From Escherichia coli O127:H6 str. E2348/69 (GTDB lineage: Bacteria; Pseudomonadota; Gammaproteobacteria; Enterobacterales; Enterobacteriaceae), in assembly GCF_000026545.1 (NCBI RefSeq), contig NC_011602.1: 6,147 nt of DNA. One strand, written 5' to 3'. The notes beneath the pieces were generated by a model, which worked only from the letters and a program-made list of their open reading frames with translations, did no database searches and had not been told where the DNA came from. The position numbers were made by a program, and so were the translations under genes. Numbering within the stretch: position 1 is the stretch's first letter; every line of letters starts with the position of its first letter. Positions 1,821 to 5,955 of the stretch are shown piece after piece.

Positions 1821-2656
1821 TGTTCATGCCGCCTGTTTTTCCTGCTCATTGGCACGTTTCGCAACCTGTTCTCATTGCGGACACCTTTTCCAGCCTCGTT
1901 TGGAAAGTTTCATTGCCAGACGGGACTCCTGCAATCGTCAAGGGATTGAAACCTATAGAAGACATTGCTGATGAACTGCGCGGGGCCGACTATCTGGTAT
2001 GGCGCAATGGGAGGGGAGCAGTCCGGTTGCTCGGTCGTGAGAACAATCTGATGTTGCTCGAATATGCCGGGGAGCGAATGCTCTCTCACATCGTTGCCGA
2101 GCACGGCGACTACCAGGCGACCGAAATTGCAGCGGAACTAATGGCGAAGCTGTATGCCGCATCTGAGGAACCCCTGCCTTCTGCCCTTCTCCCGATCCGG
2201 GATCGCTTTGCAGCTTTGTTTCAGCGGGCGCGCGATGATCAAAACGCAGGTTGTCAAACTGACTACGTCCACGCGGCGATTATAGCCGATCAAATGATGA
2301 GCAATGCCTCGGAACTGCGTGGGCTACATGGCGATCTGCATCATGAAAACATCATGTTCTCCAGTCGCGGCTGGCTGGTGATAGATCCCGTCGGTCTGGT
2401 CGGTGAAGTGGGCTTTGGCGCCGCCAATATGTTCTACGATCCGGCTGACAGAGACGACCTTTGTCTCGATCCTAGACGCATTGCACAGATGGCGGACGCA
2501 TTCTCTCGTGCGCTGGACGTCGATCCGCGTCGCCTGCTCGACCAGGCGTACGCTTATGGGTGCCTTTCCGCAGCTTGGAACGCGGATGGAGAAGAGGAGC
2601 AACGCGATCTAGCTATCGCGGCCGCGATCAAGCAGGTGCGACAGACGTCATACTAG
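1820..2656 (+). CDS. strB: Aminoglycoside 6-phosphotransferase APH(6)-Id (streptomycin resistance, StrB)
   Basis: 278-aa product starting MFMPPVFPAHWHVSQ at ATG 1820, which overlaps the strA stop by 1 bp (TGATG), suggesting translational coupling. The ORF track extends the frame to a TTG at 1811, but the canonical StrB N-terminus supports 1820. Stop TAG at 2654-2656. Confidence 0.94.
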   Translation: MFMPPVFPAHWHVSQPVLIADTFSSLVWKVSLPDGTPAIVKGLKPIEDIADELRGADYLVWRNGRGAVRLLGRENNLMLLEYAGERMLSHIVAEHGDYQATEIAAELMAKLYAASEEPLPSALLPIRDRFAALFQRARDDQNAGCQTDYVHAAIIADQMMSNASELRGLHGDLHHENIMFSSRGWLVIDPVGLVGEVGFGAANMFYDPADRDDLCLDPRRIAQMADAFSRALDVDPRRLLDQAYAYGCLSAAWNADGEEEQRDLAIAAAIKQVRQTSY

Positions 2657-3167
2657 ATATCAAGCGACTTCTCCTATCCCCTGGGAACACATCAATCTCA
2701 CCGGAGAATATCGCTGGCCAAAGCCTTAGCGTAGGATTCCGCCCCTTCCCGCAAACGACCCCAAACAGGAAACGCAGCTGAAACGGGAAGCTCAACACCC
2801 ACTGACGCATGGGTTGTTCAGGCAGTACTTCATCAACCAGCAAGGCGGCACTTTCGGCCATCCGCCGCGCCCCACAGCTCGGGCAGAAACCGCGACGCTT
2901 ACAGCTGAAAGCGACCAGGTGCTCGGCGTGGCAAGACTCGCAGCGAACCCGTAGAAAGCCATGCTCCAGCCGCCCGCATTGGAGAAATTCTTCAAATTCC
3001 CGTTGCACATAGCCCGGCAATTCCTTTCCCTGCTCTGCCATAAGCGCAGCGAATGCCGGGTAATACTCGTCAACGATCTGATAGAGAAGGGTTTGCTCGG
3101 GTCGGTGGCTCTGGTAACGACCAGTATCCCGATCCCGGCTGGCCGTCCTGGCCGCCACATGAGGCAT
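2628..3167 (-). mobile_element. IS91-family (ISCR-like) rolling-circle transposase, 5' fragment only (N-terminal zinc-binding domain; catalytic HUH/Tyr domain absent)
   Basis: The minus-strand ORF starts at ATG (complement of 3165-3167) and encodes ...RPEQTLLYQIVDEYYPAF...CGRLEHGFLRVRCESCHAEHLVAFSCKRRGFCPSCGARRMAESAALLVDEVLPEQPMRQWVLSFPFQLR, the conserved N-terminal Cys-rich zinc-binding signature of IS91/ISCR transposases. Only about 540 bp are available where a full gene needs about 1.2-1.5 kb, and the reading frame runs into the 3' end of strB, so the gene is truncated. Assignment to CR2/ISCR2, the usual partner of sul2, is an inference I could not verify. The exact point where homology ends (somewhere between 2657 and about 2800) is unknown. 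Confidence 0.7.
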
Positions 3168-3210: not shown

Positions 3211-3600
3211 TTAGCGGAAAGTTCTTTTACCCTCAGCCGAAATGCCTGCCGTTGCTAGACATTGCCAGCCAGTGCCCGTCACTCCCACTCTTACATTGTT
3301 CGCAGTATCTAGGTACATGTTATTGCGTGCACCTTCATGATGTATAATGTTATTAATGACAGCAGAAAGATCGACAGAATTAATATTCTTCGTACCTGGG
3401 ACAGTTATCGGGTGTCGGCCAGTGATGAGACCAAAGGATGCAGTATAAGATGAACCACTACTATTATCATGGCCACCATTACCACCACCGTTAAAACTAC
3501 CTCCCGAACTTCCAGAGCCGCTATGACCATCATTGTAGGGGTCATTTGGTCCCATGTGACCAAAACCACCGACAGTACCGCTATTTAACTCTGTACTCAT
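3211..3600 (-). CDS. Glycine/serine-rich 129-aa protein of unknown function; colicin-like disordered N-terminus; SOS-box promoter
   Basis: ATG at complement of 3598-3600 with a strong RBS AGAGGA (3608-3613) 7 nt upstream. Product MSTELNSGTVGGFGHMGPNDPYNDGHSGSGSSGGSFNGGGNGGHDNSSGSS... followed by about 70 less biased residues. The ORF track starts the frame 11 codons upstream (3633), but the RBS supports 3600. The coding call is supported mainly by the RBS and promoter architecture; the product class is not established. Confidence 0.55.
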   Translation of the reverse strand: MSTELNSGTVGGFGHMGPNDPYNDGHSGSGSSGGSFNGGGNGGHDNSSGSSYTASFGLITGRHPITVPGTKNINSVDLSAVINNIIHHEGARNNMYLDTANNVRVGVTGTGWQCLATAGISAEGKRTFR

Positions 3601-3817: not shown

Positions 3818-4258
3818 ATGGCATGGCACACAGTTCAAGAGACACTGAAATTAACAGGAAAGTCGCGCTCGCAATTATATCGTGACATGGCTAAAGGCCT
3901 TGTCAGCTATCGCACAGGAAAAAATGATCGCCGGGAGTTCGAGACCAGTGAACTGATTCGGGCCTATGGCGAGCTGCGCACTTCTGAGACACCAAAAAGG
4001 CACAAGGAGGGACACTCCAAATCTGTCGTTAGCCAGGCGGAAAATGCTCAGCTAGACGTCATTCAGCAGAAACTGGACGCTCTGCAGCAGACTGTTACCC
4101 TAATGCTTGAAGACAAGATGGCGCGGGAAGCAGAAAACCGCCTGCGAAATGAGGAGAGGGAACAACTACAGGCCGAAATTAGCCGTCTGGCTGACGCGCT
4201 GGCACAGGAAAAAAAGCGGGGATTCTGGTCGCGGCTGTTTCGCTCCGGTTCAGAGTAA
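3818..4258 (+). CDS. Putative helix-turn-helix DNA-binding protein with C-terminal coiled coil (146 aa; function unknown)
   Basis: ORF with stop TAA at 4256-4258. The preferred start is ATG 3818 (MAWHTVQETLKLTGKSRSQLYRDMAKGLV...), preceded by AGGAG at 3799-3803 (14-nt spacing, longer than ideal) and an extended -10 TGtTACAAT at 3778-3787. An alternative in-frame ATG at 3770 gives 162 aa. The N-terminus looks like an AlpA/excisionase/MerR-like HTH; the C-terminal roughly 70 aa are heptad-like and rich in charged residues and Gln/Leu (...LDALQQTVTLMLEDKMAREAENRLRNEEREQLQAEISRLADALAQEKK) with a basic amphipathic tail. Confidence 0.55.
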   Translation: MAWHTVQETLKLTGKSRSQLYRDMAKGLVSYRTGKNDRREFETSELIRAYGELRTSETPKRHKEGHSKSVVSQAENAQLDVIQQKLDALQQTVTLMLEDKMAREAENRLRNEEREQLQAEISRLADALAQEKKRGFWSRLFRSGSE

Positions 4259-4852
4259 CAGTGCAGGTGACTCTGATTTACCATAACATCTGTTATCAGC
4301 ACCGCCTGAGAGGCCCTCAGGGCGTTTCTGACGGGAAACCGGTAAAACAGGCAACAAACCACCCGAAAACCCGCCAGAAACGCGCAGGCTCTGTTTTTAC
4401 GGCATGCATGAGTATGCGCACAAGTGCATAGCGCGGAAATTCACACCATTCAGCCGGGGTAAGTCCTGTTTCCGGCGTTCTTCCCATCCGAAAACGGTGA
4501 ACGGGGACGCAATTTATTGCGTGGCCGTGAAGCGTTGCCGGCGCAGCCGGAAAACCCGCTGTCAGCACGTTCAGGAAGGGGGTGATGTACAAATGGCACA
4601 GAGGATGAAAGTGACGTATGAGCTGAAGGAGCGATGTAATTCTGTAGTCAGGAAGAATAACCCGTTCATGCAGGCATGAACGATACAGTGAGGAACGCTT
4701 TTTTTGTCACGATCTCCCCTTAACCTGCGTAAATCACCCGCCATGGTTGATTATTTTTCAACCTCAAAATGGTCATACACCTAACGCAGCCGCGATTTTC
4801 ATCGCAACTGCATGAATTAAAAGAAAAAAAAGGAATATTTCGTTTTCACGAG

Positions 4853-4926
4853 TAATACCCGGGTATTAAAAATCCACTGTAATTACATGAAAATAAAGAA
4901 ATAAAAGGTAATACCGGAGTATTACC
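4853..4926. repeat. Cluster of related palindromes: TAATAC-N4-GTATTA twice, plus TGTAATTACA
   Basis: P1 at 4853-4868 is TAATACCCGGGTATTA, a perfect 16-bp palindrome. P2 at 4907-4926 is GGTAATACCGGAGTATTACC, 8-bp arms around CGGA. Both share half-sites TAATAC / GTATTA separated by 4 bp, with centres about 56 bp apart. P3 at 4878-4887 is TGTAATTACA, a perfect 10-bp palindrome in the AT-rich spacer. On the minus strand P2 is followed by TTTTATTTCTTTATTT and so may also act as an intrinsic terminator for the 4950-5099 ORF. Confidence 0.5.
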
Positions 4927-4949
4927 ACGTACGCGGGCAAGCGAAAAAG

Positions 4950-5099
4950 CTATAACGCTTCCCGGCCGACAGGCGACCCAAAATCCACAGGGGCATGCAG
5001 GTTCTCTTCAGTAACCTGCGCCATTAAATCAAAAAGGTCATATTCGCCGGGAAGCTGCGTATCAGTCGAATCCAGTTGTTCATCATATTCAGATGGCAT
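4950..5099 (-). CDS. Hypothetical small acidic protein (49 aa), next to bom/oriT
   Basis: Hand-translated minus-strand ORF, absent from the ORF track (probably below its length cutoff): MPSEYDEQLDSTDTQLPGEYDLFDLMAQVTEENLHAPVDFGSPVGREAL. ATG at complement of 5097-5099, stop at 4950-4952. No clear Shine-Dalgarno. The terminator-like hairpin P2 with a T-run lies 23 nt downstream. Coding status is uncertain. Confidence 0.25.
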   Translation of the reverse strand: MPSEYDEQLDSTDTQLPGEYDLFDLMAQVTEENLHAPVDFGSPVGREAL

Positions 5100-5125
5100 G
5101 GGGTGATATCCAGTAGCTGAGAGGT

Positions 5126-5200
5126 TGTTAGCGGGTTTCGGGGCGCAGCCCTGAACCAGTCATGTAGCGCTAGCGGAGTGTATACTGGCTTACTATGTTG
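5126..5200 (+). other. ColE1-type bom/oriT (basis of mobility) site
   Basis: ...CGGGGCGCAGCCCTGAACCAGTCATGTAGCGCTAGCGGAGTGTATACTGGCTTACTATG closely resembles the pBR322/ColE1 bom region as recalled (GGGGCGCAGCCATGACCCAGTCACGTAGCGATAGCGGAGTGTATACTGGCTTAACTATG). The nick is expected near the conserved TATACTGGCTTA motif (5181-5192). No cognate mob/mbe relaxase gene is present in the window. Confidence 0.6.
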
Positions 5201-5399
5201 CCACGATTGCGAAAATCAGTGAAGTGCTTCATGTGGCAGGAGAAAAAAGGCAGCACCGGCGCGTCAGCAGAATATGCGATACAGGAGATATTCCGCTTCC
5301 TCGCTCACTGACTCGCTACGCTCGGTCGTTCGGCTGCGGCGAGCGGTACCGGCTTACGGACGGGGACGGAAATTTCCTGGAAGATACCAGGAAGACACT

Positions 5400-5470
5400 T
5401 AGCAAAGAAGAGATAAGGCCACGGCGAAGCCGTTTTTCCATAGGCTCCGCCCCCCTGACAAGCATCGCAA
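5400..5470 (-). other. ColE1/p15A-type origin of replication (RNA-DNA transition region)
   Basis: AAGCCGTTTTTCCATAGGCTCCGCCCCCCTGACAAGCATC matches the conserved ori core of p15A/pMB1 replicons as recalled. It lies about 520-550 nt downstream of the inferred RNA II start, on the minus strand. Leading-strand replication is inferred to proceed leftward. Confidence 0.6.
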
Positions 5471-5955
5471 AATCTGACGCTCAAATCAGTGGTGGCGAAA
5501 CCCGACAGGACTATAAAGATCCCAGGCGTTTCCCCCTGGTAGCTCCCTCGTGCGCTCTCCTGTTCCTGCCTTTCGGTTTACCGGTGTCATTCCGCTGTTA
5601 TGGCCGCGGTTTCTCATTCCACGCCTGACACTCAGTTCCGTGAAGGCAGTTCGCTCCAAGCTGGACTGTATGCACGAACCCCCCGTTCAGTCCGACCGCT
5701 GCGCCTTGTCCGGTAACTATCAACTTGAGTCCAACCCGGAAAGACACGACAAAACGCCACTGGCAGCAGCCATTAGTAACAGGAGTGCACGAGAAGATAG
5801 ATTAAGAGGTCTTGAAGTAGAGGCCTGACTGCGGCTACACTGAAAGAACAGTTTTGGTAATGGCGGTCTCGTGAACCCTGTTACCGGGTTAAGCAGTTCC
5901 CCAACTGACTTAACCTTCGAACAAACCGCCTCCCCAGGCGGTTTTTTCGTTTACA
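5432..5955 (-). ncRNA. RNA II pre-primer transcript (approximate extent)
   Basis: Minus-strand promoter with -35 TTGAGA (complement of 5986-5991), 17-bp spacer, -10 TAATCT (complement of 5963-5968). The transcribed region is collinear with the p15A RNA II region as recalled, with many substitutions. Ends are approximate. Confidence 0.6.
5848..5947 (+). ncRNA. RNA I antisense copy-number control RNA (approximate extent)
   Basis: Plus-strand promoter with -35 TTGAAG (5812-5817), 18-bp spacer, -10 TACACT (5836-5841), and a start near ACAGTTTTGG as in ColE1 RNA I. It ends at an intrinsic terminator, CCGCC-TCCCCA-GGCGG plus T7 (5925-5947). It is antisense to the 5' end of RNA II. Confidence 0.6.

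What the first reader, a model, noticed from the sequence alone, without database searches (positions are those of the whole stretch)
4950..5099. Unannotated 49-aa acidic ORF next to oriT, followed by a hairpin terminator
The ORF is missing from the supplied track. It begins about 30 bp from the bom region and is transcribed away from it, the position mob accessory genes occupy in ColE1-type plasmids, yet it is too short and too acidic to be an MbeC-like protein. It could be a mob remnant, an anti-restriction or DNA-mimic-like peptide, or an immunity-like partner for the glycine-rich protein. The RBS is weak, so it may not be expressed.
Basis: partly seen in the sequence, partly recalled or inferred. 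Interest (0 to 1): 0.35.

Follow-up and report, generated by a model that had tools for sequence, protein, structure and literature searches.

The report
Tail-only MazE antitoxin beside oriT
The 49-codon reading frame is real and is kept intact on hundreds of small ColE1-type plasmids; it encodes only the toxin-binding tail of a MazE antitoxin, with no DNA-binding head and no toxin gene nearby, so it is most likely a free-standing antidote to MazF-type toxins made elsewhere in the cell.

Summary
The ORF at 4950-5099 (- strand) is confirmed: 49 aa, 12 acidic against 1 basic residue, and it starts about 20 nt from the ColE1/p15A-type bom. The window is a complete p9123/pCERC1-family sul2-strAB plasmid. 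RefSeq already annotates the ORF, first as "hypothetical" and now as "AbrB/MazE/SpoVT family".

Residues 19-49 are homologous to the disordered C-terminal tail of MazE, the part that neutralises MazF. The AbrB DNA-binding head is absent, and no mazF or remnant of one is present. The same 49-codon frame occurs in 543 of 565 plasmid records that carry the DNA, and in 237 of 5,426 complete E. coli genomes.

Among 19 distinct alleles the tail codons show purifying selection (omega about 0.43, p = 5e-4). The 18-codon leader evolves neutrally (omega about 0.9).

The "terminator" hairpin is part of a second, IncN-type oriT, so the ORF lies between two transfer origins.

Best reading (0.45): an orphan, head-less mini-antitoxin that binds MazF-type toxins in trans. 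Main rival (0.30): a slowly decaying relic of a mazEF module.

Expression is untested: there is no Shine-Dalgarno sequence and no promoter-like site. This is a new variant of a known kind, of moderate interest.

The parts
4950..5099 (-). 49-codon ORF (with stop) encoding a head-less MazE-type peptide
   Evidence: Annotated as WP_001138880.1 in RefSeq. The full-length frame is present in 543 of 565 plasmid records that carry the DNA.
4953..5045 (-). Codons 19-49: homologue of the disordered, toxin-binding C-terminal tail of MazE (E. coli MazE residues about 52-82)
   Evidence: tblastn to MazE genes that sit next to mazF: 68% over 31 aa in Acetobacter (E 5e-6) and 58-61% in IncN/IncHI plasmids. 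NCBIfam MazE NF007312, positions 53-80 of 82. PDB 7d2n residues 49-78 of 80, and 1mvf/1ub4 from about residue 55 to within two residues of the C-terminus. Alignment. Omega about 0.43, p = 5e-4.
5046..5099 (-). Codons 1-18: variable acidic leader with no counterpart in MazE
   Evidence: Does not align with the AbrB domain. 18 synonymous and 41 non-synonymous changes, omega about 0.9, p = 0.42. Nucleotide diversity 0.156.
5100..5117 (-). Conserved 5' leader CTACTGGATATCAC(C/A)(C/T)C before the ATG, with no Shine-Dalgarno match
   Evidence: Conserved in all aligned loci, including L025 where everything further upstream is different.
5118..5200 (.). ColE1/p15A-type bom (oriT) with the nick-region motif TATACTGG/CTTAC at 5181-5193
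   Evidence: Read from the sequence. Nucleotide diversity 0.07 across 13 loci. Identifying the nick site rests on my recollection of the ColE1/pBR322 bom and was not tested here.
4897..4926 (-). Hairpin GGTAATAC-N4-GTATTACC plus a T-run: possible terminator of the ORF transcript, and also an inverted repeat of the IncN-type oriT block
   Evidence: The stem is invariant and the loop variable in 20 loci. The arms change in a compensatory way (A.T to T.A) in the IncN-type homologue.
4716..4926 (.). Second transfer origin: homologue of the IncN-plasmid oriT (stbA-traK intergenic region), with a nick-like motif CGTTAGGTGTATGACC on the - strand (4771-4787)
   Evidence: About 71% identity over about 180 nt to pSH-01, next to stbA. 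Also matches IncN pE17EC0112-2 at 15259-15333, between the stbA-like gene and traK.
5849..5950 (+). RNAI. It places the primer RNAII on the - strand, running the same way as the ORF and upstream of it, as a possible source of read-through transcription
   Evidence: Rfam RF00106, 73.9 bits. Read-through expression is an inference, not shown.

Best explanation
The ORF encodes a tail-only ("head-less") MazE-type antitoxin. An 18-residue acidic leader that is free to vary is followed by the roughly 31-residue disordered tail that MazE antitoxins use to wrap round and inactivate a MazF endoribonuclease dimer. It lacks the AbrB head, so it cannot dimerise or bind an operator through that domain, and it has no toxin gene of its own. 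I propose that the multicopy plasmid produces it, probably on read-through transcripts of the co-directional RNAII primer. I further propose that it acts in trans as a sponge for MazF-type toxins encoded elsewhere. Candidate sources are the host chromosome and co-resident plasmids, such as the IncN-type conjugative plasmids whose oriT these small plasmids also carry. That would blunt post-segregational killing or stress-induced arrest, which is an anti-addiction role. What is shown: the homology, the missing head and toxin, the wide in-frame conservation, and purifying selection confined to the tail. What is inferred: expression, binding to a MazF, and the identity of that MazF.
For: (1) Homology. 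Residues 19-49 align with the C-terminus of MazE proteins encoded next to mazF. They also match the NCBIfam MazE equivalog at positions 53-80 of 82 and solved MazE chains. The motif invariant across the full-length MazE relatives in alignment A2, L..L....T.EN.H.....G.P...E, is complete in the ORF.
(2) Division of labour in MazE. Residues 1-50 bind DNA, and the disordered C-terminus serves only to neutralise MazF (PMC4333400). A 23-residue C-terminal MazE peptide binds the MazF dimer strongly and inactivates both of its active sites. A 35-residue C-terminal piece fused to MazF suppresses its toxicity in cells (PMC3281143, summarising Kamada 2003 and Li 2006).
(3) Conservation. 565 plasmid records carry the DNA, 543 at full length, and tblastn also gives 543 full-length places. 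All full-length rows sampled were single in-frame pieces. The ORF is present in 237 of 5,426 complete E. coli genomes. 64 protein clusters with 1,209 members are intact, against 38 clusters with 70 members that have a disrupted tail.
(4) Selection. There are 127 inferred substitutions among 19 alleles, all of which share the truncated architecture: 50 synonymous, 77 non-synonymous, 0 stops, against 27% synonymous expected (p = 0.0015). In tail codons 19-49 the counts are 31 and 36 (omega about 0.43, p = 5e-4). In leader codons 1-18 they are 18 and 41 (omega about 0.9, p = 0.42). Nei-Gojobori dN/dS is 0.28 for the tail and 0.61 for the leader. The alleles were picked for protein divergence, which biases against this result.
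(5) Independence from bom. In L025 and P0078 the ORF with its 18-nt leader follows a rop-HTH operon instead of bom.
(6) It is retained on plasmids of only 2.1-2.6 kb.
(7) Tail-only MazE homologues recur elsewhere, and the orphan-antitoxin/anti-addiction concept is established (PMC7354431, PMC11541004).
Against: No Shine-Dalgarno sequence and no promoter-like site were found, and I have no expression data. No cognate toxin was identified, and antitoxin-toxin pairs are usually specific: the tail is only about 42% identical to E. coli MazE and about 60% to the nearest enterobacterial plasmid MazE. A monomeric tail lacks the avidity of dimeric MazE. Total divergence is small (at most about 17% nt), so selection rests on 127 substitutions. 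The ORF sits in a conserved block between two cis-acting oriTs and could be carried along with them. Position 40 alternates between Phe and Ser, although natural MazE tails carry W, F or T at that position. Deletion, frameshift and stop-loss alleles exist (L006; P0094, seen on 12 contigs; P0011, 64 members), so the ORF is dispensable. A structure prediction of a MazF-MazF-ORF fusion failed, so nothing structural supports binding.
Confidence: 0.45

Rival explanations
1. Non-functional relic. A mazEF module once lay here. Recombination at bom removed the AbrB head, and the toxin was lost. What remains is an open frame that happens to begin with an ATG and survives because the family is young and the segment is wedged between two useful oriTs.
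For: No head, no toxin and no good expression signals. Low overall divergence. The neighbouring DNA is about equally conserved. Many independent frameshift, deletion and stop-loss alleles exist. In a large Klebsiella survey most orphan antitoxins were judged to be degraded systems (PMC7354431).
Against: A relic should evolve with omega about 1 throughout. Instead the tail shows omega about 0.43 (p = 5e-4) while the adjoining leader is neutral. All compared alleles share the truncation, so this selection post-dates it. Disrupted alleles are numerous as types but rare as copies: 70 members against 1,209 intact. The ORF moved to a different upstream context with its leader intact (L025). No trace of a mazF or AbrB remnant is left in any locus. 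That argues for an old loss followed by retention of the tail alone.
Confidence: 0.3
2. Not translated. The conservation reflects DNA- or RNA-level function, for example extended relaxosome-binding sequence of one of the two oriTs, a primosome assembly site, or the 3' part of read-through RNAII.
For: The position between bom and an IncN-type oriT. The weak RBS and absent promoter. A perfect 10-bp inverted repeat inside the ORF at 4957-4966 and 5046-5055.
Against: The excess of synonymous change is specific to this frame; only the antisense frame that shares its third positions comes close, and that frame is interrupted by stops. The internal inverted repeat is not maintained in divergent alleles. 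There is no Rfam match. A DNA-level element would not explain clear protein homology to MazE tails. The first 54 nt are among the more variable stretches of the conserved block (pi 0.156).
Confidence: 0.12
3. A functional small acidic protein with a role unrelated to toxins. One example would be a mobilisation accessory factor that contacts a helper relaxase or coupling protein, co-opted from a MazE tail.
For: It occupies the slot next to oriT where accessory Mob proteins are encoded, in plasmids that have oriTs but no relaxase.
Against: No similarity to any Mob or relaxosome family. The selected part is exactly the MazF-binding motif. In L025 it is detached from bom.
Confidence: 0.1
4. One of the first reader's options: an anti-restriction or DNA-mimic peptide, or the immunity partner of the glycine-rich protein at 3211-3600.
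For: Only its acidity and its presence on the same plasmid as the glycine-rich protein gene.
Against: No hits in Pfam, PHROGs or PADLOC. The glycine-rich gene is absent from all ORF-bearing loci outside the p9123 family. By the orientation of both oriTs the ORF lies on the side expected to enter a recipient last, not in a leading region. That is an inference together with my recollection of relaxase-side and nick orientations.
Confidence: 0.03

Closest known systems
MazE (ChpAI) antitoxin of the type II mazEF module (E. coli; also plasmid mazEF of IncN/IncHI and Acetobacter plasmids)
   Same: Residues 19-49 are homologous to the acidic, disordered C-terminal tail that binds MazF, and the family-wide motif is complete.
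   Different: There is no AbrB/SpoVT DNA-binding and dimerisation head, no adjacent mazF and no operator context. The ORF is 49 aa against about 82 aa, and its N-terminal 18 residues are unrelated.
MazEp, the synthetic 23-residue C-terminal MazE peptide (and the 35-residue piece used in MazF 'zymoxins')
   Same: It consists essentially of the same segment of the protein. That segment alone binds MazF dimers and suppresses their activity (PMC3281143).
   Different: MazEp is a laboratory fragment of E. coli MazE tested on its cognate toxin. This ORF is a natural gene product with a diverged sequence and an unknown target.
Orphan antitoxins / anti-addiction modules (e.g. chromosomal CcdA of Erwinia against F-plasmid CcdB; orphan antitoxins on pVbh; orphan antitoxins in plasmid leading regions)
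   Same: An antitoxin homologue without its own toxin, carried on a mobile element, and proposed to neutralise toxins encoded elsewhere (PMC7354431, PMC11541004).
   Different: The described orphans are, as far as I know, generally full-length antitoxins. This one keeps only the toxin-binding tail. It sits on the side of oriT inferred to enter last, not in a leading region.
PaaA2 (paaR2-paaA2-parE2) and similar antitoxins without a DNA-binding domain
   Same: A small, disordered antitoxin consisting only of a toxin-binding region, with regulation left to other factors (PMC8630535).
   Different: PaaA2 belongs to a different family and toxin (ParE2). It is encoded in an operon with its toxin and a dedicated regulator.
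Published notice of this gene: 'MazE TA system' of RelN_RNA type 1 (p9123-family) plasmids
   Same: Branger et al. 2019 report that all plasmids of this family carry a 'MazE TA system' (PMC6807383). NCBI's PGAP now names the ORF 'AbrB/MazE/SpoVT family'.
   Different: Neither notes that the toxin and the DNA-binding domain are missing. The PGAP name ('DNA-binding domain-containing') describes exactly the part that is absent.

Membership tests
Type II antitoxin MazE (AbrB/SpoVT-fold family, PF04014 / NF007312) | N-terminal swapped-hairpin AbrB/SpoVT domain that dimerises and binds the operator | tested here: not met
   The ORF has no Pfam hit, whereas full-length relatives hit PF04014. The frame upstream is closed and the DNA there is bom. 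No AbrB remnant was found by tblastn in any locus.
Type II antitoxin MazE (AbrB/SpoVT-fold family, PF04014 / NF007312) | Acidic disordered C-terminal tail with the MazF-binding motif | tested here: met
   The match is below the curated whole-protein cut-off (16 against 113 bits) because only the tail is present.
Type II antitoxin MazE (AbrB/SpoVT-fold family, PF04014 / NF007312) | Encoded immediately upstream of a mazF/pemK toxin gene | tested here: not met
   tblastn with five MazF/PemK/ChpBK proteins found no remnant in the window or in the small-plasmid loci fetched by then. Downstream lies oriT-like DNA.
Type II antitoxin MazE (AbrB/SpoVT-fold family, PF04014 / NF007312) | Neutralises a MazF endoribonuclease by direct binding | not testable with these tools
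   The AlphaFold2 attempt on a MazF-MazF-ORF fusion gave an unusable model, mean pLDDT 32.
Orphan antitoxin / anti-addiction module | Antitoxin homologue with no toxin gene in its neighbourhood | tested here: met
   The same holds in all annotated small-plasmid contexts.
Orphan antitoxin / anti-addiction module | Maintained by selection rather than decaying | tested here: met
   Tail omega about 0.43, p = 5e-4. 543 of 565 plasmid copies are full length. Caveats: low divergence, and some disrupted alleles exist.
Orphan antitoxin / anti-addiction module | Neutralises a toxin encoded on another replicon | not testable with these tools
   Candidates only: E. coli MazF, or the IncN-plasmid MazF, whose MazE tail is 61% identical to the ORF tail.
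ColE1-type mobilisation accessory proteins (MbeB/MbeC/MbeD, MobC) | Sequence membership in a Mob/relaxosome family | tested here: not met
   No Pfam or NCBIfam Mob hit. Only the position next to bom fits.
Anti-restriction / DNA-mimic proteins (ArdA, Ocr and similar) | Homology to a known family | tested here: not met
   No match in Pfam, PHROGs or PADLOC.
Anti-restriction / DNA-mimic proteins (ArdA, Ocr and similar) | Location in the leading region | tested here: inconclusive
   The ORF lies on the traK/relaxase side of the IncN-type oriT. By my recollection of the nick orientation it also lies on the side of bom that enters last. The orientation rests partly on memory.
Bacteriocin immunity protein for the glycine-rich protein (3211-3600) | Co-occurrence with the bacteriocin-like gene | tested here: not met
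   The glycine-rich gene is found only in the window, L001 and L002, and in none of the other ORF-bearing loci.

The most novel reading that the evidence does not exclude
Tail-only MazE peptides may be an unrecognised, widespread class of trans-acting mini-antitoxins. On this reading, small relaxase-less ColE1 plasmids carry one between their two borrowed oriTs to disarm the MazF toxins of the host or of the conjugative (for example IncN) plasmids they ride on. Analogous 40-60-residue tail-only genes, some overlapping the stop codon of the housekeeping gene upstream, would do the same in the chromosomes of unrelated bacteria. A profile of the family found about 50 such head-less proteins among the 135 representative hits (P0115-P0249) that were examined, as well as the same tail fused to other N-terminal domains.
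Probability: 0.3. Interest if true: 0.6.

Novelty: new variant of a known kind. Interest (0 to 1): 0.4.

Why it matters
These plasmids (the p9123/pCERC1 family and many 2-6-kb relatives) are globally spread carriers of sul2, strAB, dfrA14 and tet(A). The ORF is present in about 4% of complete E. coli genomes. If the peptide neutralises MazF-type toxins, a multicopy hitch-hiker plasmid could cancel the addiction system of larger plasmids, or dampen a host stress toxin. That would affect plasmid competition, plasmid-curing strategies that rely on toxin-antitoxin systems, and possibly the fitness benefit once reported for p9123. That last link is only a lead from a title cited in PMC6807383. It would also be a natural proof that an antitoxin tail works without its DNA-binding head, and it would flag a class of very small genes that annotation pipelines currently mislabel as DNA-binding proteins. 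If the ORF is instead a relic, the practical lesson is that "MazE TA system" calls on these plasmids are false positives for addiction modules.

Tried and rejected
- **Family scans of the 49-aa protein.** Pfam, PHROGs and PADLOC gave no hits. The only match was the weak NCBIfam tail match.
- **Search for a lost toxin or head.** tblastn with E. coli MazF, ChpBK, PemK, two plasmid MazFs, the 180-aa neighbour of the IncN mazE and an AbrB head, run against all loci fetched by then, found nothing.
- **Longer database versions of the protein (58-84 aa).** None has an AbrB head. They are upstream read-ins, frameshifts or stop-loss variants.
- **Structure prediction.** AlphaFold2 on a MazF-G25-MazF-G25-ORF fusion with a 25-row alignment gave mean pLDDT 32. 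MazF itself did not fold, so the model is uninformative.
- **RNA families.** Only RNAI matched, at 5849-5950. Nothing credible overlapped the ORF or the hairpins.
- **Internal inverted repeat.** The perfect 10-bp repeat inside the ORF is not kept in divergent alleles, so I rejected it as a structural element.
- **Promoter scan.** None found. Read-through from RNAII stays an inference.
- **Conserved block at 4755-4805.** I first took it for a cer site. It is instead the nick region of an IncN-type oriT. A cer-like core lies at 4276-4303.
- **Origin of the ORF.** I tested whether the ORF and the IncN-type oriT came together from an IncN plasmid. In IncN pE17EC0112-2 the mazE-mazF cluster is about 20 kb from oriT, so a joint capture is not supported.
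- **pCERC1 paper.** It is not held in the library.

Full report
**What the window is.** The 6,147 bases are a complete small plasmid, 100% identical over the tested 601 nt to E. coli p6148 and to many 6.2-8.4-kb E. coli, Shigella and Salmonella plasmids. It carries sul2, strA, strB and a truncated ISCR element. It also has a ColE1-type replicon with RNAI at 5849-5950. This is the "p9123 family" (RelN_RNA type 1) of Branger et al. 2019 (PMC6807383): relaxase-less, RNA-primed plasmids.

**The observation.** The ORF at 4950-5099 (- strand) is as described: 49 aa, with 12 Asp/Glu against one Arg, and pI 4.05.
- Its ATG is about 20 nt from the conserved bom block, and it is read away from that block.
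- There is no Shine-Dalgarno match in the leader and no sigma-70-like site within 4600-5400.
- An 8-bp hairpin with a T-run follows at 4897-4926.
- The ORF is not unknown to databases. RefSeq annotates it as WP_001138880.1. Most recent E. coli records name it [quoted passage not shown].

**What it is.** Residues 19-49 (EYDLFDLMAQVTEENLHAPVDFGSPVGREAL) are homologous to the extreme C-terminus of MazE antitoxins.
- tblastn finds MazE genes that lie directly upstream of mazF. In an Acetobacter plasmid the match is 68% over 31 aa (E 5e-6). In enterobacterial IncN and IncHI plasmids it is 58-61%.
- The NCBIfam MazE equivalog aligns its positions 53-80 of 82 to residues 20-47.
- A family profile hits solved MazE chains: 7d2n over residues 49-78 of 80, and E. 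coli MazE from about residue 55 to within two residues of its C-terminus.
- The motif shared by all these tails, L..L....T.EN.H.....G.P...E, is complete in the ORF.
- In MazE, residues 1-50 form the AbrB-type DNA-binding dimer. The disordered tail serves only to neutralise MazF (PMC4333400).
- The ORF has the tail and nothing else. Its first 18 residues do not align with the AbrB domain, Pfam sees no domain, and the frame is closed upstream where the DNA is bom.
- tblastn finds no remnant of an AbrB head or of any MazF/PemK/ChpBK toxin in the window or in the small-plasmid loci fetched up to that point.

**Is it more than a chance frame?**
- The DNA occurs in 565 plasmid records, 543 of them at full length. 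tblastn likewise gives 543 full-length places, and all full-length rows sampled were single in-frame pieces.
- Hosts include Escherichia, Klebsiella, Salmonella, Shigella, Citrobacter and Enterobacter. Many of the plasmids are only 2-4 kb.
- 237 of 5,426 complete E. coli genomes carry it.
- In the protein collection, 64 clusters with 1,209 member sequences are intact. 38 clusters with 70 members have a disrupted tail, and 7 clusters with 77 members were flagged as having lost the stop codon, though a few of those may be partial calls misclassified by my script.
- I collected 19 distinct nucleotide alleles, 83-99% identical, deliberately choosing the most divergent proteins.
- On a neighbour-joining tree, parsimony infers 127 substitutions: 50 synonymous, 77 non-synonymous and no stops, against 27% synonymous expected (p = 0.0015).
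- The signal is entirely in the MazE-like part. Codons 19-49 have 31 synonymous and 36 non-synonymous changes (omega about 0.43, p = 5e-4). Codons 1-18 have 18 and 41 (omega about 0.9, p = 0.42).
- Nei-Gojobori estimates agree: 0.28 for the tail against 0.61 for the leader.
- Of the five other frames, only the antisense frame that shares third positions approaches this ratio, and it contains stops.
- All alleles share the truncated architecture, so this selection acted after the head was lost.
- Synonymous divergence (about 0.2) is of the same order as the diversity of the unconstrained flanks (0.32-0.38).

**Context.** In most relatives the order is ori, bom, ORF, hairpins, then further genes, often rop and an HTH gene. 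All of these run in the same direction as RNAII.
- In L025 and P0078 the ORF with only its last 18 leader bases follows the rop-HTH genes directly, without bom. So the coding unit moves independently of that oriT.
- One plasmid (L006) has a deletion from codon 31 through the hairpins.

**The region downstream of the ORF is not just a terminator.** Window 4716-4926 is about 71% identical to the stbA-traK intergenic region of IncN-type plasmids, which is where I recall the IncN oriT to lie. It includes a nick-like motif: CGTTAGGTGTATGACC here, CGTTAGGTGTATAGCAGG in IncN.
- The hairpin arms change in a compensatory way between the two.
- The ORF therefore lies between two transfer origins. Small ColE1 plasmids with two foreign-type oriTs have been described before (pEC156; PMC4743918).
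- By the gene order in the IncN plasmid (stbA side low, traK-relaxase side high) the ORF lies on the relaxase side of that oriT. By my recollection of the ColE1 nick it is also on the side of bom that enters last. This is an inference, and it argues against a "leading-region" anti-defence role (PMC11541004).

**How it most likely works.** A 23-residue C-terminal MazE peptide binds the MazF dimer strongly and inactivates both of its active sites. A 35-residue C-terminal piece fused to MazF suppresses its toxicity in cells (PMC3281143). The tail alone is therefore a sufficient inhibitor in principle.
- I propose that the ORF product is a monomeric, unregulated toxin sponge made from a multicopy plasmid.
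- Transcription probably comes from RNAII read-through. This is inferred and the gene order.
- The partner toxins of the closest full-length relatives are MazF proteins 56-67% identical to E. coli MazF.
- Plausible targets are therefore the chromosomal MazF, or the MazF of IncN-type and similar plasmids. An IncN plasmid whose oriT resembles the one next to the ORF carries such a mazE...mazF cluster.
- This is the anti-addiction / orphan-antitoxin idea (PMC7354431), applied to an antitoxin reduced to its tail, much as PaaA2 lacks a DNA-binding domain (PMC8630535).
- I put this at 0.45. Expression, binding and target are all untested.

**Rivals.**
- A decaying relic (0.30) fits the missing head and toxin, the weak signals and the existence of disrupted alleles. 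It does not explain selection confined to the tail, or the rarity of disrupted copies.
- A purely DNA- or RNA-level element (0.12) fits the position between two oriTs. It does not fit the frame-specific substitution pattern or the protein homology.
- A toxin-unrelated role in mobilisation (0.10) cannot be excluded.
There is no family match, and the glycine-rich protein gene is confined to the p9123 family.

**A wider pattern.** A profile of the family, searched against 1.84 billion representative proteins, found canonical 77-85-aa MazEs and also many head-less relatives.
- About 50 of the 135 hits examined are proteins of 39-65 aa that consist of a hydrophilic leader plus the tail, though a few of these retain the last AbrB strands. 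In other hits the same tail is fused to other N-terminal domains or repeated in tandem.
- None of the five head-less examples whose context I could see is next to a toxin gene. One overlaps the stop of efp by 4 nt in three metagenome contigs. One sits upstream of ribD in two contigs. One overlaps the end of an enolase-superfamily gene in a Chloroflexi MAG.
- Canonical MazE-MazF pairs with nearly the same tail occur in other MAGs.
- This suggests the plasmid ORF is one instance of a recurrent tail-only form, but I did not test those genes further.

**Novelty and verdict.** The gene has been noticed before, as the "MazE TA system" of this plasmid family (PMC6807383) and under PGAP's AbrB/MazE name. 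Both labels are misleading, because there is no toxin and no DNA-binding domain. I found no analysis of it as an orphan, head-less tail under selection. I rate it a new variant of a known kind (orphan antitoxins), of moderate interest (0.4). The interest would be higher if neutralisation of a helper-plasmid or host MazF were shown.

Noticed in passing
window 4716-4926: A second, IncN-type oriT homologue (about 71% identity to the stbA-traK intergenic region of IncN-type plasmids). It has a nick-like motif CGTTAGGTGTATGACC on the - strand (4771-4787) and two GTAATAC/GTATTAC hairpins (4852-4868, 4907-4926). This relaxase-less plasmid therefore carries two different transfer origins flanking the ORF.
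   Followed up: partly
window 4276-4303: A cer-like Xer recombination core on the - strand, GGTGCTGATAA-CAGATG-TTATGGTAAAT, just after the HTH gene. I recognised it from my recollection of the XerC/XerD consensus and did not test it.
   Followed up: no
window 3211-3600 (- strand) and 2628-3167 (- strand): The glycine-rich protein has no Pfam or NCBIfam family and only a weak match to a cyanovirin-N tandem construct (PDB 3s3z, E 0.0024). Immediately downstream of its 3' end (3211) lies a truncated ISCR transposase gene (2628-3167; NF052416, 191 bits against a 925-bit cut-off). It occurs only in p9123-family loci.
   Followed up: partly
L019 1913-2056; L034-L036; L037-L038; L032; L033: Other head-less MazE tails of 47-53 aa sit in chromosomal or metagenomic contexts without any toxin gene. 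Two of them overlap the stop of the upstream gene by 4 nt (efp in three contigs; an enolase-superfamily gene in a Chloroflexi MAG). One lies just upstream of ribD in two contigs.
   Followed up: partly
proteins P0121-P0123, P0126, P0129, P0143, P0176, P0188: The same MazE tail motif appears fused to N-terminal regions that look, by eye, HicB-like (P0176) or ribbon-helix-helix-like (P0188). It also appears as two tandem tails in one protein (P0121-P0123, P0143). This suggests the tail is a portable module.
   Followed up: no
L004 1348-2721 (= CP088481.1 35381-36754); L005 1351-2720: In IncN and IncHI plasmids the mazE most similar to the ORF is separated from mazF by two small genes for hydrophobic proteins (180 aa, and 85 aa in L004 or 98 aa in L005) with no Pfam family. 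This is an unusual four-gene arrangement.
   Followed up: no
L025 199-1027 (also P0078): Here the ORF follows rop and an HTH_17 gene on the same strand, with only the last 18 leader bases shared with the bom context. A recombinant junction lies just upstream of the ORF.
   Followed up: partly
L006 2501-2620 (NZ_CP026215.1): A deletion allele fuses codon 30 of the ORF to sequence about 330 nt downstream. It removes the tail, both hairpins and the IncN-type nick region.
   Followed up: no
L012, about 90-140 nt upstream of the ORF (CP057702.1): The nick-proximal bom sequence (agcatagtaagcc...) is tandemly triplicated in this 2,567-bp plasmid (alignment).
   Followed up: no
window 4957-4966 and 5046-5055: A perfect 10-bp inverted repeat (GCTTCCCGGC / GCCGGGAAGC) lies inside the ORF, with 79 nt between the arms. 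It is not maintained in divergent alleles, so it is probably of no structural significance.
   Followed up: yes
window 3818-4258 (+ strand): The HTH protein (weak NCBIfam hit to rep_pAB02_ORF2 'plasmid replication DNA-binding protein', E 2e-11) has 35-41% identical homologues directly downstream of rop in other ORF-bearing plasmids. Its function is unknown.
   Followed up: no
protein P0011 (77 aa, 64 member sequences); P0094 (58 aa, 12 contigs): A stop-loss allele extends the peptide by 28 residues, and a frameshift allele breaks at codon 37. Both are seen repeatedly, so they are real variants rather than sequencing noise.
   Followed up: no
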